From a phage, in the sequence record PX092659.1: a DNA stretch of 64,000 nucleotides; one strand, written 5' to 3'. Of the stretch, positions 19,436 through 30,928 are shown piece by piece. A program made the position numbers and the translations under genes. The notes under the pieces are model-generated. The model searched no databases, was not told where the DNA came from, and saw only the letters and a program-made list of their open reading frames with translations. The stretch's first letter is position 1, and each line of letters begins with the position of its first letter.

Positions 19436-19510
19436 GCCGTCCTAGTATAATTGGTATTATCAAGCCGTAACTGGTGGAAGATGTAGGTTCGAATCTTACG
19501 GTCGGTAAGA
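19436..19510 (+). ncRNA. degenerate tRNA-like element
   Basis: Canonical T-arm gtagg-ttcgaat-cttac and 6/7 acceptor pairing, but no acceptable anticodon stem and no CCA. Confidence 0.25.
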
Positions 19511-25875: not shown

Positions 25876-26148
25876 ATGCATCCTGAAAACTTCTTTATTT
25901 ACTGCGCGGATAAGTCGCTGAAACGTAGAATTAACAAAGTCTATCATTATCGTGCTAGTCAACAGCCTTATGTATATGCTTTTGACGGTGATCACATTCC
26001 ACTAGAACAATTATCTTGTGATTACATGATATTGAAGAACTTTGACGAGACGAAGATCTCAAGCGTTCATAATCGACAGAATCCCTTAACGTGGAAATAT
26101 AAGAAGAAAAAGAAAGGCATCAAATTCTTAAAAAATGTAGTTGCTTAG
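25876..26148 (+). CDS. hypothetical protein (about 90 aa)
   Basis: Listed ORF 25861..26148 trimmed to first ATG; ends inside next promoter. Confidence 0.4.
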   Translation: MHPENFFIYCADKSLKRRINKVYHYRASQQPYVYAFDGDHIPLEQLSCDYMILKNFDETKISSVHNRQNPLTWKYKKKKKGIKFLKNVVA

Positions 26149-26169
26149 TTTCTAAAAGTTCTGTATAAT
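26141..26169 (+). promoter_or_regulatory. T5-type promoter
   Basis: TTGCTT-17-TATAAT. Confidence 0.65.
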
Positions 26170-26217
26170 AATTACATAAATTGAACTGGAGAAGCAACAT
26201 GACAGAACAAGATAAAC

Positions 26218-26383: not shown

Positions 26384-26485
26384 AATTCTGTGTAGAGTTA
26401 AGTAAACCGGTAGCCAACCAGCTATCATTGCTGACATCGAATTCAGCCACAGATACCATTTTCATTAATAACTGAGGAAACAAGC

Positions 26486-27034: not shown

Positions 27035-27382
27035 ATGCGTAATGCTAAAGAAGAGCTGTTACTCGCCTTAAAAAATACCAATTCTAAAGTTAAGTGTATT
27101 AAAATAGAATTTGGGTATTATGGGGACAAAAAAGTCTGGGTATTACCTTTAGGTTATACAGAAGAAGACATTGAGGGGTTTCTTAATAACCTAGACTTTG
27201 AATATGATTCTGGATACGGTGGACAATTACTTTATGGTAATGTATGGTTTGCCGATGGAACTTGGCTAGAACGTGGGGAATATGATGGTGCTGAGTGGTG
27301 GGAATACAAGGCTACACCAGCAATCCCAGAGGAATGCCGAACAATTAATGGTGAAGTAGATAATACTTTACGGTTAAACTAA
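27035..27382 (+). CDS. hypothetical protein (115 aa)
   Basis: ORF in plus-strand array. Confidence 0.5.
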   Translation: MRNAKEELLLALKNTNSKVKCIKIEFGYYGDKKVWVLPLGYTEEDIEGFLNNLDFEYDSGYGGQLLYGNVWFADGTWLERGEYDGAEWWEYKATPAIPEECRTINGEVDNTLRLN

Positions 27383-27504
27383 TAAAATTTCAGTGCAGAA
27401 CACGGAGCTAGCAATTCGGAAGTGCTGACTCATGATAAGCTGCCTATGTACTTGCAAAGCGGTCGTGTCCAAGACTCGGACTCTTGCACTGAAAACAATC
27501 AAAC

Positions 27505-27623
27505 ATTCTAGCGTGGTTGATGGGGAAACCAGCTTGGCTAGGGCAGAAGCTCGTTCGATTCGAGTGAAAGAATGGTTCTCGTAAGTCCGCACAAGTGATA
27601 GCAGGTTCGAGTCCTGTCTAGAA
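27505..27623 (+). ncRNA. tRNA-like RNA with a ~105-nt body
   Basis: 7-bp acceptor-like helix attctag/ctagaat closing a region that ends with canonical T-arm gcagg-ttcgagt-cctgt. Confidence 0.3.
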
Positions 27624-27774
27624 TGATACTATAAAGTTTACTTATTGAGTAGGTTCCGATAGATCGGCGGGTCTATTCTGGCAGTTAAGAGAGGTCTCGC
27701 AAACTTCTTTGTCAGCCGTGGGGTTGGTAGCCTCCAGGTGGCCTACACAATAAGTAAATTTATTAAAAATTCAT

Positions 27775-27803
27775 TTGCTATTTCGCTTAATTCTCGGTAT
27801 AAT
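27775..27803 (+). promoter_or_regulatory. T5-type promoter
   Basis: aaaaattcaTTTGCTA-17-TATAAT. Confidence 0.7.
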
Positions 27804-27835
27804 ATATCTTATAAAGTGTTGAGAAGGAAAGCAAA

Positions 27836-28033
27836 ATGAAAAAAGTTTTACTGCTGTCTGTATTCCTACTTACTGGTTGTTTTAAACTTGACTCAACCAT
27901 TAATAAAGAGTATGAATTTGCTAAAAATTTCTGTGGCGGAGAGAGTAATATAAAGAATTTCTACATATATAGTACAATTCCTAGTACCGTTTATTGTGTA
28001 GACGGACGAATTATTAATATTCCTCCACAATAA
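27836..28033 (+). CDS. small lipoprotein (65 aa)
   Basis: Signal peptide with lipobox LLTGC. Confidence 0.5.
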   Translation: MKKVLLLSVFLLTGCFKLDSTINKEYEFAKNFCGGESNIKNFYIYSTIPSTVYCVDGRIINIPPQ

Positions 28034-28391: not shown

Positions 28392-28470
28392 AGATCGCTA
28401 GCTCAATAGGTTTAGTAGCATCCGACTTTTAATCGGAAGGTTCTGGGTTCGAGTCCCAGGCGATCTACCA
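28392..28470 (+). tRNA. tRNA-Lys (anticodon TTT)
   Basis: Acceptor agatcgc/gcgatct, anticodon arm tccga-cttttaa-tcgga, T-arm ctggg-ttcgagt-cccag, CCA. Confidence 0.75.
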
Positions 28471-28488
28471 ATTTCAAGAAAAACGCAG

Positions 28489-28517
28489 TTGCTTAATGCG
28501 TAATTTCTTGTTACAAT
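28489..28517 (+). promoter_or_regulatory. T5-type promoter
   Basis: TTGCTT-17-TACAAT; drives a non-coding transcript. Confidence 0.6.
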
Positions 28518-28745
28518 ATTTATATAAATTGATGAGGAGAAATCCTCGTCATAGTTCACTAAGGTATTAGCTCGACCTAGGACTGGCTGCCAAAAAGCAC
28601 GATCCCTACGATTCGGGAGAAGTTCTAGATTAGTCCACTAGATTCAGCGGCAACTGAATAGTGTATCGGGTTTGCGAGATGACGCGGTTCCTTCCGCTCG
28701 AAGCGAAGGTGCTGTAGTTACGCCGAGCTAATAGCCTTAGTAAAC

Positions 28746-29014: not shown

Positions 29015-29105
29015 TCTTATTACTGGAAGAGCAAATCGAATTGGCGACGAAAACCGCTTGGAAAGTGGCTGACTGGTAAAACGGCTTGAGAGTTCAAATC
29101 TCTCC
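29015..29105 (+). tRNA. tRNA-Ser (anticodon GGA), class II
   Basis: Acceptor ggaagag/ctcttcc, anticodon loop ttggaaa, ~18-nt variable arm, T-arm gagag-ttcaaat-ctctc, CCA. Confidence 0.65.
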
Positions 29106-29134
29106 TCTTCCGCCAAACACTTGAGGTAATAATA

Positions 29135-29779: not shown

Positions 29780-30148
29780 AAAATTCTTGAAGTATGCCGG
29801 AATCGGTAGACGGGGCTGCCTAAAAGGTTTATAGGGAACATCCACTCCCTGCAACATACCTCATAAAGCGGCTGAGATAAATGGTCTATCTCGTGAAGGT
29901 TCAAGTCCTTCTGCTTCTTGATACATCTATGGCTCAAAGTGTAACGGTGCTATTTGATGCTCTTGGTAAGACTTCCCCGACATGCGTTCGGGAGTAAGCT
30001 GCTAAGACTAGAGTAGAAGAGTTTCTGAGAGCCGCCACAATTGAAAATTCGTACTCGTCTTGAGCTGCGTGCAATAGGAGATAACTTGATTAGTATTCTA
30101 GAACATGCTAATTGAGGATGGTTTCGCTAACCCTGCGAGTTTTCAATT

Positions 30149-30852: not shown

Positions 30853-30928
30853 GCGGTTAAGCACACGGGTTGTGTCGCAGGCCTTCCAAGCCTCGCTGAG
30901 TAGGGTTCGATTCCCTCTAGCCGCTCCA
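30853..30928 (+). tRNA. tRNA-Gly (anticodon TCC)
   Basis: Acceptor gcggtta/tagccgc, D-stem caca/tgtg, anticodon loop cttccaa, T-loop ttcgatt, CCA; some stem mismatches. Confidence 0.6.

What the first reader, a model, noticed from the sequence alone, without database searches (positions are those of the whole stretch)
27389..27623. Two adjacent structured-RNA candidates between a CDS and the next promoter
ttcagtgca (27389-27397) pairs with tgcactgaa (27485-27493), closing a ~105-nt domain. Directly after, a 7-bp helix attctag/ctagaat (27505-27511 with 27617-27623) encloses ~105 nt ending in a canonical tRNA T-arm (gcagg-ttcgagt-cctgt). The second looks like a tRNA with a very large insertion, or a tRNA-derived small RNA.
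Basis: seen in the sequence. Interest (0 to 1): 0.5.

Follow-up and report, generated by a model that had tools for sequence, protein, structure and literature searches.

The report
Known T5 tRNA-like stable RNA2
The second candidate is the long-catalogued phage T5 "RNA2", a tRNA-shaped stable RNA whose anticodon loop is replaced by a conserved ~55-nt domain and whose function is still unknown; the first candidate is a strongly conserved but unannotated 121-nt element whose RNA fold cannot be verified.

Summary
The window is the tRNA cluster of a T5-like phage. Candidate 2 (true extent 27504-27628) is 96.7% identical to the gene the curated T5 record annotates as rna2, a "tRNA-like stable RNA with unknown functions".

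Covariation across 23 homologues confirms a cloverleaf frame. A conserved inner domain replaces the anticodon loop and holds a second T-loop hairpin with an invariant UUCGAUU loop. Homologues occur in Klebsiella and Serratia T5-like phages, T4-like Acinetobacter phages and a soil metagenome contig. There is no Rfam family.

Candidate 1 (27383-27503) is unannotated everywhere. It is as conserved as RNA2, about 8-fold less diverse than neighbouring third-codon positions, and sits in three different upstream contexts. Its fold has no covariation support and only marginal thermodynamic support.

My best mechanistic reading is a natural "tRNA scaffold": the frame gives RNase P processing and stability, and the inner domain is the functional payload, partner unknown. 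Verdict: already known, with modest residual interest.

The parts
27383..27503 (+). Conserved, unannotated 121-nt element between the stop codon of the T5.067-like ORF and the 5' end of RNA2. Perfect 10-bp closing helix 27388-27397 / 27485-27494; interior fold unverified.
   Evidence: Helix verified. 98.3% identical to the unannotated gap in T5. Found in 220 phage records, all at least 90% identical. Diversity pi 0.019, against 0.161 at third-codon positions of the neighbouring ORF. Three different upstream contexts. No compensatory changes. z = -0.83 / -1.82. No Rfam hit.
27504..27628 (+).
   Evidence: 96.7% identity to T5 misc_RNA rna2, in the same position. Also annotated in the BF23 record. 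Covariance model gives 147.9 bits. 94.8% of cells paired and 23 of 35 pairs compensatory over 23 homologues.
27504..27511 (+). RNA2 acceptor stem, 5' strand (C-1 plus ATTCTAG). Pairs with 27618-27625 (CTAGAAT plus G73).
   Evidence: all 8 pairs show compensatory changes across lineages.
27514..27531 (+). RNA2 D-arm: 5-bp stem TGGTT/AACCA, loop with GGGG.
   Evidence: 5 of 5 pairs covary; the GG of the loop is invariant.
27532..27596 (+). Anticodon-type stem (27532-27536 with 27592-27596) enclosing the conserved inner domain (27537-27591) that replaces the anticodon loop.
   Evidence: 3 of 5 stem pairs covary. The inner sequence motifs GAAAGAATGG, CGTAA and TCCGCA are near-invariant from T5-like to T4-like phages.
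27550..27564 (+). Inner T-arm-like hairpin CTCG-TTCGATT-CGAG (a second T-loop).
   Evidence: Seven lineages, 100% paired, 3 of 4 pairs covary, 7-nt loop invariant.
27601..27617 (+). RNA2 T-arm GCAGG-TTCGAGT-CCTGT, directly abutting the 3' acceptor strand (27618-27624) and discriminator G27625.
   Evidence: 3 of 5 pairs covary.
27647..27749 (+). RNAIV homologue (stable RNA, function unknown), not in the finding. The extended closing helix spans 27640-27756; the fold is a four-way junction with three hairpins.
   Evidence: 97% identity to T5 misc_RNA rnaIV. z = -3.49. 43 consensus pairs, 9 compensatory.
27756..27830 (+). Promoter region homologous to T5 P13a (hexamers TTGCTA / TATAAT at 27775-27803). 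It starts the next transcription unit.
26121..26195 (+). Promoter homologous to T5 P14b, the inferred start of the transcript that carries tRNAs, small ORFs, E1, RNA2 and RNAIV.
   Evidence: 97% identity to the annotated T5 P14b. No other promoter-like site of comparable quality lies between 26600 and 27750.
27035..27382 (+). 115-aa ORF (T5.067 homologue, function unknown) immediately upstream of E1.
   Evidence: phrog_3972, unknown function.

Best explanation
The region is the 3' end of a polycistronic early tRNA-operon transcript of a T5-like phage. It carries three independent RNA modules in a row: E1 (27383-27503), RNA2 (27504-27628) and RNAIV (27647-27749).

Candidate 2 is the gene for T5 RNA2. 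I read it as a natural 'tRNA scaffold'. The frame (8-bp acceptor helix, D-arm, T-arm, anticodon-type stem) makes the host tRNA-maturation machinery excise it and shields it from exonucleases: RNase P at 27503/27504, then 3' trimming. The conserved ~55-nt inner domain replaces the anticodon loop. It carries a second T-loop hairpin plus invariant AAUGG and CGUAA motifs, probably forming a second elbow-like module. This domain would be the functional payload, acting in trans on a still unknown partner. RNA2 is not a decoding tRNA.

E1 is a separately conserved module that always abuts the RNA2 5' end. After RNase P cleavage its 10-bp closing helix would sit at the 3' end of whatever lies upstream. 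It would either protect that RNA or persist as an eighth ~110-120-nt stable RNA.

Shown: identity with T5 rna2 and rnaIV; the RNA2 and RNAIV folds by covariation; modularity; strong conservation of E1.
Inferred: processing route, scaffold/payload division of labour, trans action, and any E1 transcript.
Approximate likelihoods: identity with T5 RNA2 about 0.97; scaffold-plus-payload mechanism about 0.4; E1 being a functional RNA element about 0.55.
For: Identity: the T5 reference annotates rna2 and rnaIV between T5.067 and promoter P13a. The alignment is 97% identical and collinear. Coordinates map to 27504-27626 and 27649-27749. BF23 carries the same annotation.

Fold: RNAalifold recovers acceptor, D, anticodon-type and T stems. 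Over 23 homologues, 94.8% of cells are paired and 23 of 35 pairs are compensatory, against 10 or fewer in slid controls and 0 of 500 shuffles. The inner hairpin is 100% paired with an invariant loop.

Frame is tRNA-like: the RNA2 model also hits ordinary tRNAs at 15-32 bits by deleting the inner domain, while true homologues score 57-150 bits.

Payload matters most: the inner domain and T-arm are the best-conserved part in T4-like Acinetobacter phages and metagenomic relatives, where the acceptor and D arms are degenerate or overlap the next tRNA.

3' CCA is encoded in some lineages and absent in others, arguing against aminoacylation as the conserved role.

Always inside tRNA clusters.

Operon context: P14b and P13a are mapped, with no internal promoter or terminator.

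E1: pi 0.019, equal to RNA2 at 0.017 and far below third-codon positions at 0.161. Three upstream contexts, but always directly 5' of RNA2.
Against: No expression, end-mapping or binding data could be examined here. 'Stable RNA' rests on the depositors' annotation and on my memory of 1980s work by Ksenzenko, Kryukov, Bayev and colleagues, which the paper library does not hold.

The partner of the inner domain is unknown. Two of the proposed inner helices are only weakly supported and fail in some lineages.

Free-energy z-scores of RNA2 are not significant.

For E1 there is no covariation. Several natural substitutions hit predicted pairs, and the interior minimum-energy fold changes between variants. 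Its high identity could partly reflect recent horizontal spread rather than constraint. E1 is absent from many relatives that keep RNA2, so it is dispensable for RNA2 maturation.
Confidence: 0.55

Rival explanations
1. tRNA-mimic decoy. The tRNA-like frame itself is the active part. RNA2 binds and titrates a host tRNA-binding factor, such as a defence tRNase, a modification or processing enzyme, or a synthetase. The enlarged anticodon arm makes it uncleavable or non-decoding.
For: The frame is conserved with canonical D-loop GG and a T-loop, so a tRNA-like elbow is expected. The gene sits among phage tRNAs. From published work known to me, not tested here, phage tRNAs in T5 counter tRNA-targeting defences. 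The second T-loop module could mimic a second elbow.
Against: Anticodon nucleases usually read the anticodon loop, which is absent. In T4-like Acinetobacter homologues the acceptor and D arms are degenerate while the inner domain is kept. That points to the insert, not the frame, as the conserved functional part. Position 8 is C rather than the near-universal U8, and the D stem has 5 bp. No binding partner is known.
Confidence: 0.2
2. Purely cis-acting punctuation or stability elements. RNA2, E1 and RNAIV exist only to direct cleavage of the polycistronic transcript and to protect the flanking mRNA and tRNAs from exonucleases. The released RNAs are by-products without a trans function.
For: They lie at the end of a transcription unit with no intrinsic terminator. 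E1's helix would cap the upstream RNA after RNase P cleavage (inference). E1 and the slot upstream of RNA2 are variable among relatives.
Against: A cleavage signal needs only an acceptor/T-arm minihelix. Near-invariance of a ~55-nt inner domain across phage families and hosts is not explained. Neither is E1's interior being as conserved as its helix. RNA2 homologues wedged directly between tRNAs need no extra punctuation.
Confidence: 0.15
3. RNA2 is a genuine decoding tRNA whose anticodon loop carries an intron-like insertion that is removed after transcription.
For: The acceptor, D and T arms and a 5-bp anticodon-type stem are in the right places. Some homologues encode 3' CCA.
Against: The curated mature RNA is 125 nt, so the insert is retained. 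The insert is about 55 nt with no group I intron features and no Rfam intron or tRNA hit, even at E up to 10. ARAGORN, which allows introns, calls nothing. The insert is more conserved than the frame. CCA and the discriminator are not conserved. No isotype affinity was seen.
Confidence: 0.03
4. E1 is not an RNA element at all. It would be a DNA-level or selfish module: a small inverted-repeat element, or a recombination or homing-endonuclease target that spreads among T5-like tRNA regions. Its conservation would then reflect recent transfer.
For: 10-bp terminal inverted repeats, patchy distribution, three different upstream junctions, and higher identity between SB9-type phages and T5-type phages than the adjacent RNA2 shows (about 97% against 89.5%). 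The T5 tRNA region carries several HNH endonuclease genes.
Against: Single copy: TTCAGTGCA occurs once in 64 kb, and nhmmer finds no paralogue. There is no clear target-site duplication (sequence inspection). Its 3' neighbour is always RNA2, on the transcribed strand of an RNA operon.
Confidence: 0.12

Closest known systems
Bacteriophage T5 RNA2 (gene rna2, locus T5s06; also annotated in BF23), 'tRNA-like stable RNA with unknown functions'
   Same: Same gene: 96.7% identity over 123 of 125 nt. Same position between the T5.067 ORF and RNAIV/promoter P13a, same strand, same length.
   Different: A few substitutions only, for example the 3' tail AUA here against ACA in T5, and G against A at the base of the anticodon-type stem.
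Bacteriophage T4 species 1 and species 2 RNAs (rnaC, rnaD)
   Same: Small stable RNAs encoded inside a phage tRNA cluster and co-processed with tRNAs, function unknown. rnaC also ends in a T-arm plus an acceptor-like helix around a large insert (sequence).
   Different: Not detectably homologous. The RNA2 model gives only 15.5 bits on part of rnaC, and BLAST finds only T-arm words. This is an analogue, not a family member. True RNA2 homologues do occur in other T4-like phages (Acj133, Acj9).
Engineered 'tRNA scaffold' chimeric RNAs (Ponchon and Dardel; from my own knowledge, not checked here)
   Same: An RNA of interest inserted in place of the anticodon loop of a tRNA is processed and stabilised by the host tRNA machinery. 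RNA2 has that architecture.
   Different: RNA2 is natural. Its D stem has 5 bp and position 8 is C. The acceptor helix is 8 bp and CCA is not encoded in this phage.
tmRNA tRNA-like domain and bacterial YrlA (Y RNA-like) tRNA-like modules
   Same: Non-decoding RNAs that keep an acceptor/T-arm or elbow mimic fused to another functional domain.
   Different: ARAGORN finds no tmRNA. There are no Rfam tmRNA or Y RNA hits at E up to 10, no tag reading frame and no pseudoknots. In YrlA the termini lie at the opposite end of the molecule (own knowledge).
T5 RNAI, RNAIII and RNAIV (103-107-nt stable RNAs with a long closing stem and three hairpins)
   Same: E1 has a similar size and predicted overall shape, and lies in the same operon type.
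   Different: No sequence similarity to any of them. E1 is not annotated in any record seen, and its fold is unsupported by covariation.

Membership tests
T5 RNA2 (tRNA-like stable RNA) family | Sequence homology to the annotated T5 rna2 gene | tested here: met
   96.7% identity over 123 of 125 nt. Model score 147.9 bits against 145.2 for T5 itself.
T5 RNA2 (tRNA-like stable RNA) family | Syntenic position: downstream of the T5.067 ORF, upstream of RNAIV and promoter P13a, same strand as the tRNAs | tested here: met
   Collinear 97% alignment across the whole interval.
T5 RNA2 (tRNA-like stable RNA) family | Cloverleaf frame with a large conserved domain in place of the anticodon loop | tested here: met
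T5 RNA2 (tRNA-like stable RNA) family | Accumulates as a stable ~125-nt RNA in infected cells | not testable with these tools
   Known only from the depositors' annotation. No expression data were available.
Canonical decoding tRNA | 7-bp acceptor stem, D-arm with GG, and a T-arm with a T-loop abutting the acceptor 3' strand | tested here: met
   Here the acceptor helix has an extra -1:73 pair and the D stem has 5 bp.
Canonical decoding tRNA | 5-bp anticodon stem closing a 7-nt loop with an anticodon | tested here: not met
   The stem opens into a 55-nt domain (27537-27591).
Canonical decoding tRNA | Detected by tRNA gene finders or covariance models | tested here: not met
   ARAGORN finds nothing at 27389-27760. 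Rfam RF00005 is absent even at E up to 10.
Canonical decoding tRNA | Conserved 3' CCA end and discriminator allowing aminoacylation | tested here: not met
   G-AUA here and G-ACA in T5. CCA is encoded only in the UTK0010/INF11 lineage and one Klebsiella lineage. Post-transcriptional CCA addition was not testable.
tRNA interrupted by a group I intron | Intron of about 200 nt or more with a group I core | tested here: not met
   The insert is about 55 nt, and there is no Rfam intron hit.
tmRNA | tRNA-like domain with G3:U70, a tag reading frame and pseudoknots | tested here: not met
   ARAGORN finds no tmRNA and Rfam finds none. The acceptor pair 3:70 is U-A here.
T4 rnaC / rnaD | Detectable homology to T4 species 1 or species 2 RNA | tested here: not met
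   15.5 bits on part of rnaC only. BLAST finds T-arm words only.
Any Rfam 15 family (for E1) | Covariance-model match | tested here: not met
   No hit over 27300-27850 at E up to 10, apart from an irrelevant weak 'pan' match at 27724-27831.
Conserved structured RNA (for E1) | Base pairs maintained by compensatory substitutions | tested here: inconclusive
   27 distinct variants, all at least 94% identical. No compensatory change was seen, and several substitutions fall on predicted pairs. The closing helix is invariant, so it is uninformative.

The most novel reading that the evidence does not exclude
RNA2 would define an uncatalogued phage RNA family with no Rfam entry. It is spread by horizontal transfer among T5-like siphoviruses, T4-like Acinetobacter myoviruses and uncultured soil phages. 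Its conserved double-T-loop 'second elbow' payload would dock onto or sequester a conserved host component of the tRNA/translation system, for example a tRNA-targeting defence nuclease, RNase P, or the CCA ends or elbows of tRNAs. That would make it an RNA-based counter-defence or host-takeover factor. In addition, E1 would be an eighth, never-described stable RNA of T5.
Probability: 0.15. Interest if true: 0.75.

Novelty: already known. Interest (0 to 1): 0.33.

Why it matters
As a discovery it does not matter much. The tRNA-like RNA has been in the curated T5 and BF23 records for about two decades, and to my knowledge in the literature since the 1980s.

It matters in three smaller ways.

(1) Almost all of the ~490 related phage genomes leave RNA2, RNAIV and the other T5 stable RNAs unannotated or cover them with spurious 'hypothetical protein' ORFs. 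No Rfam model exists, so the annotation gap is systematic and easy to close.

(2) RNA2's inner domain is conserved across phage families and hosts while its function has stayed unknown. With the current interest in phage tRNAs as counter-defence tools, it is a well-defined, testable candidate.

(3) E1 is a strongly constrained, unannotated 121-nt element next to it that nobody appears to have looked at.

Tried and rejected
- Rfam at gathering thresholds over the whole window, and at E up to 10 over 27300-27850. Nothing relevant was found.
- ARAGORN for tRNA, intron-containing tRNA and tmRNA. Nothing in the region.
- Homology of RNA2 or E1 to the other T5 stable RNAs and to T4 rnaC/rnaD. None was found.
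- Isotype affinity of the RNA2 frame. No clear signal.
- Remote homologues or paralogues of E1 by blastn, in phages and in E. coli genomes, and by nhmmer over 1.36 Mb of fetched loci. Only near-identical copies were found.
- Similarity or complementarity of the RNA2 inner domain to E. coli genomes. No match, but the test is insensitive for short pairings.
- Loose core-pattern scan of bacterial genomes. It returned 120 loci, all chance matches on inspection; the scan was row-capped.
- Intermolecular pairing among E1, RNA2 and RNAIV by duplex folding. Not meaningfully better than shuffles; E1-RNAIV gave z = -2.4 and was not pursued.
- Literature searches for functional or expression data on the T5 stable RNAs. 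Nothing was found in the library; only a T4 review stating that the roles of RNAC and RNAD are unknown.
- A resemblance between CUCGUAAGUCCGCA and the E. coli tmRNA pseudoknot-1 region, recalled from memory, was dropped. The pairing pattern here is nested, not pseudoknotted.
- The two inner helices I proposed (GGGC/GUCC and AGAA/UUCU) are only partly supported and should be treated as provisional.

Full report
**What the window is.** The 64-kb window carries 24 ARAGORN tRNA genes on one strand, interspersed with small ORFs. The region of the finding is 95-98.5% identical to about 200 T5-like phages (Demerecviridae, Tequintavirus and Epseptimavirus). It is the early tRNA-gene cluster of a T5 relative.

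**Checking the observation.**
- The 9-mers of candidate 1 are exactly where stated. The perfect helix is 10 bp (27388-27397 with 27485-27494).
- For candidate 2, ATTCTAG is at 27505-27511, but CTAGAAT is at 27618-27624, one base off from the finding. The helix extends to 8 bp with C27504:G27625.
- The T-arm is at 27601-27617, directly abutting the 3' strand.
- Such helices alone are not beyond chance. The window has 46 perfect 9-bp inverted repeats with 60-150-nt loops against 33.7 +/- 6.8 in shuffles.
- Free-energy z-scores are weak: candidate 1 gives -0.83 (105 nt) or -1.82 (121 nt), and candidate 2 gives +0.10 or -0.87.
- Four genuine tRNAs of the same window score between -0.04 and -2.56.

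**What candidate 2 is.** The curated T5 reference record (NC_005859 / AY543070) annotates two misc_RNAs between ORF T5.067 and promoter P13a:
- rna2, 'tRNA-like stable RNA with unknown functions' (125 nt)
- rnaIV, 'stable RNA with unknown functions' (103 nt)

The window aligns collinearly at 97% identity. T5 rna2 maps to 27504-27626/8 and rnaIV to 27647/9-27749. The BF23 record carries the same rna2 annotation. All seven T5 misc_RNAs have counterparts in the window:

| T5 RNA | Window coordinates |
|---|---|
| rna3 | 26386-26458 |
| rna2 | 27504-27626 |
| rnaIV | 27649-27749 |
| rna2H | 28565-28736 |
| rna1 | 29786-29930 |
| rnaI | 29931-30037 |
| rnaIII | 30042-30147 |

Candidate 2 is therefore an already catalogued gene. 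Nearly all other deposited genomes leave it unannotated or lay a spurious 'hypothetical protein' over it. Neither ARAGORN nor Rfam reports anything there, even at E up to 10.

**Is RNA2 really structured, and how?** Homologues are not limited to close relatives. They occur in:
- Epseptimavirus lineages (SB9, UTK0010, INF11)
- Klebsiella Sugarlandvirus
- a Serratia demerecvirus
- T4-like Acinetobacter phages Acj133 and Acj9
- a 167-kb IMG/VR contig
- a soil-metagenome contig

They are always inside tRNA clusters.

RNAalifold on 12 sequences recovers acceptor, D, anticodon-type and T stems. A covariance model built on this structure separates true homologues (57-150 bits) from ordinary tRNAs. 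The tRNAs match only the frame, at 32 bits or less, by deleting the insert.

On 23 homologues:
- 94.8% of cells form standard pairs.
- 23 of 35 pairs carry compensatory double changes, against 10 or fewer for every slid control.
- No shuffle out of 500 reaches the observed values.

The anticodon-type stem (27532-27536 with 27592-27596) does not close a 7-nt loop. It opens into a 55-nt domain. Within that domain a 4-bp hairpin with the T-loop-like heptaloop UUCGAUU (27550-27564) is 100% paired in seven lineages. It uses six different stem sequences around an invariant loop.

The single-stranded motifs GAAAGAAUGG, CGUAA and UCCGCA are nearly invariant from T5 to the T4-like phages. The two further inner helices I proposed are only partly supported.

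The invariant GG of AAUGG next to a T-loop suggests a second D-loop/T-loop-type 'elbow'. This is inference only.

**Features that argue against a decoding tRNA.**
- There is no anticodon loop.
- C replaces U8, and the D stem has 5 bp.
- The 3' tail is AUA here, ACA in T5 and ACU in others. CCA is encoded only in two lineages.
- No isotype affinity was found.
- In the Acinetobacter phages the acceptor and D arms are degenerate or overlap the next tRNA, while the inner domain and T-arm persist.

T4's own rnaC and rnaD are analogous: stable RNAs in the tRNA cluster with unknown roles. They are not detectably homologous to RNA2.

**The missed third element.** Between RNA2 and the promoter lies the RNAIV homologue. 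With its extended closing helix (27640-27756) it has the only clearly significant z-score (-3.49). Its consensus fold has 43 pairs, 9 of them with compensatory changes.

**Candidate 1 (E1).** The 121 nt between the ORF stop codon and the RNA2 5' end are unannotated in T5, BF23 and every other record seen. E1 occurs in 220 phage records, all at least 90% identical. No remote homologue, paralogue or host match was found.

Among 16 distinct loci:

| Region | Nucleotide diversity (pi) |
|---|---|
| E1 | 0.019 (7.4% variable sites) |
| RNA2 | 0.017 |
| ORF, second-codon positions | 0.020 |
| ORF, third-codon positions | 0.161 (44.7% variable) |
| RNAIV | 0.039 |
| Promoter region | 0.061 |

E1 appears in three upstream contexts: after the ORF, directly after tRNA-Lys(CUU)-CCA in one phage, and after another tRNA-like element ending CCACCA in SB9-type phages. 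It is always immediately 5' of RNA2, and many relatives that keep RNA2 lack it. E1 is thus a discrete, constrained module and not merely the ORF's 3' UTR.

Its fold cannot be confirmed. The closing helix never varies, so it is uninformative. Substitutions such as T44C, G45T, T48G and T81A fall on predicted pairs without compensation. The interior minimum-energy fold differs between variants.

**Transcription context.** T5's annotated promoters map as follows:
- P14b: 26121-26195
- P13a: 27756-27830
- P13b: 28470-28543

The consensus scan finds only the P13a site (27775-27803) as a strong promoter nearby, and no intrinsic terminator. E1, RNA2 and RNAIV are therefore the tail of the P14b unit, after tRNA-Cys, Asn, RNA3, Asp and Lys and three small ORFs. 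In a fold of the whole 27383-27756 stretch the three modules stay independent.

**Mechanism.** I commit to the following reading.
- The host tRNA-maturation machinery cuts the polycistronic RNA at tRNA-like structures. RNase P cleaves at 27503/27504 because the 8-bp acceptor helix, T-arm and D-arm present a tRNA-shaped substrate.
- The frame then protects RNA2 from exonucleases, as in engineered tRNA-scaffold RNAs.
- The conserved inner domain is the payload, acting in trans on an unknown and probably conserved partner.
- E1 is left at the 3' end of the upstream fragment, where its helix can block 3' exonucleases, or it persists as a further stable RNA.

Shown here: identity, folds of RNA2 and RNAIV, modularity, conservation. 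Inferred: processing, division of labour, trans action. Rivals, with rough probabilities, are listed separately: a frame-based tRNA decoy, purely cis punctuation, an intron-containing tRNA, and a DNA-level or selfish nature for E1.

**Verdict.** The interpretation of candidate 2 is right but describes a known gene. Candidate 1 is a genuine conserved element of unknown nature whose 'structured RNA' status is unproven.

Residual interest lies in three points. The RNA2 family is widespread, crosses phage families, and lacks both an Rfam model and a function. Its insert carries a covarying second T-loop hairpin. And E1 has apparently never been annotated.

Noticed in passing
window 27640-27756: Third structured RNA, the T5 RNAIV homologue (mature 27647-27749), between RNA2 and the promoter. 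It has the best z-score of the three (-3.49) and 9 compensatory pairs. It is not in the finding.
   Followed up: yes
window 26386-26458, 28565-28736, 29786-29930, 29931-30037, 30042-30147: Homologues of the other five curated T5 stable RNAs (rna3, rna2H, rna1, rnaI, rnaIII) are present, at 85-100% identity. None has an Rfam family, and most related genomes do not annotate them.
   Followed up: partly
window 29786-29930 (T5 rna1 homologue): By eye, RNA1 looks like a class II (long variable arm) tRNA with a ~47-nt insertion in the anticodon loop. Its variable-arm loop shares AAAUGGUCU with the inner domain of Klebsiella-type RNA2. That would be a second 'tRNA scaffold'-like RNA in the same cluster.
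   Followed up: no
window 30853-30928: 100% identical to T5's annotated tRNA-Gly(UCC), yet called neither by ARAGORN nor by Rfam at the gathering threshold.
   Followed up: partly
window 19436-19507: Rfam tRNA hit (30.7 bits, just above threshold) that ARAGORN does not report.
   Followed up: no
window 28471-28565 and 29024-29115: T5's tRNA-Val(UAC) and tRNA-Ser(GGA) have no BLAST counterpart in the window; the interval after tRNA-Lys(UUU) holds the P13b promoter homologue instead. The RNA2 model gives a weak tRNA-frame hit (20.3 bits) at 29024-29115, where no tRNA is called.
   Followed up: partly
L001 508-600 (Salmonella phage SB9); also L181 609-700, L182 208-300, L011: Unannotated ~90-nt tRNA-like element 'X' between tRNA-Lys and E1 in some Epseptimaviruses. 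Acceptor GGGGUCU/AGACUCC has a G3:U70 wobble, followed by A73 and an encoded CCA (alanine-type identity features), but with an 11-nt non-T-loop in the T-arm position. Not present in the window.
   Followed up: partly
L001 927-1045; also L020, L032, L181, L010, L031, L009: Another conserved unannotated ~120-nt element 'Y' follows tRNA-Gly(GCC). It is inserted between RNA2 and RNAIV in many Epseptimaviruses and some Tequintaviruses, and is absent from the window.
   Followed up: no
L034 307-428 (Serratia phage Kamaji); L003, L035, L036: The Serratia RNA2 homologue has an acceptor stem with G3:U70 and A73. The UTK0010/INF11 homologues and one Klebsiella homologue encode a 3' CCA, whereas T5-type copies do not. 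The 3' end chemistry of the family is not uniform.
   Followed up: partly
window 27836-28033: The small ORF after promoter P13a starts MKKVLLLSVFLLTGC (lipobox-like) and matches phrog_6073, labelled 'Rz-like spanin'. In T5 it is annotated only as a hypothetical protein with two transmembrane domains.
   Followed up: partly
L002 1466-1575 (Acinetobacter phage 133): The 3' strand of the RNA2-like acceptor helix overlaps the first bases of the downstream tRNA-Cys. The two structures are mutually exclusive, and RNase P processing of tRNA-Cys would truncate the RNA2-like helix.
   Followed up: no
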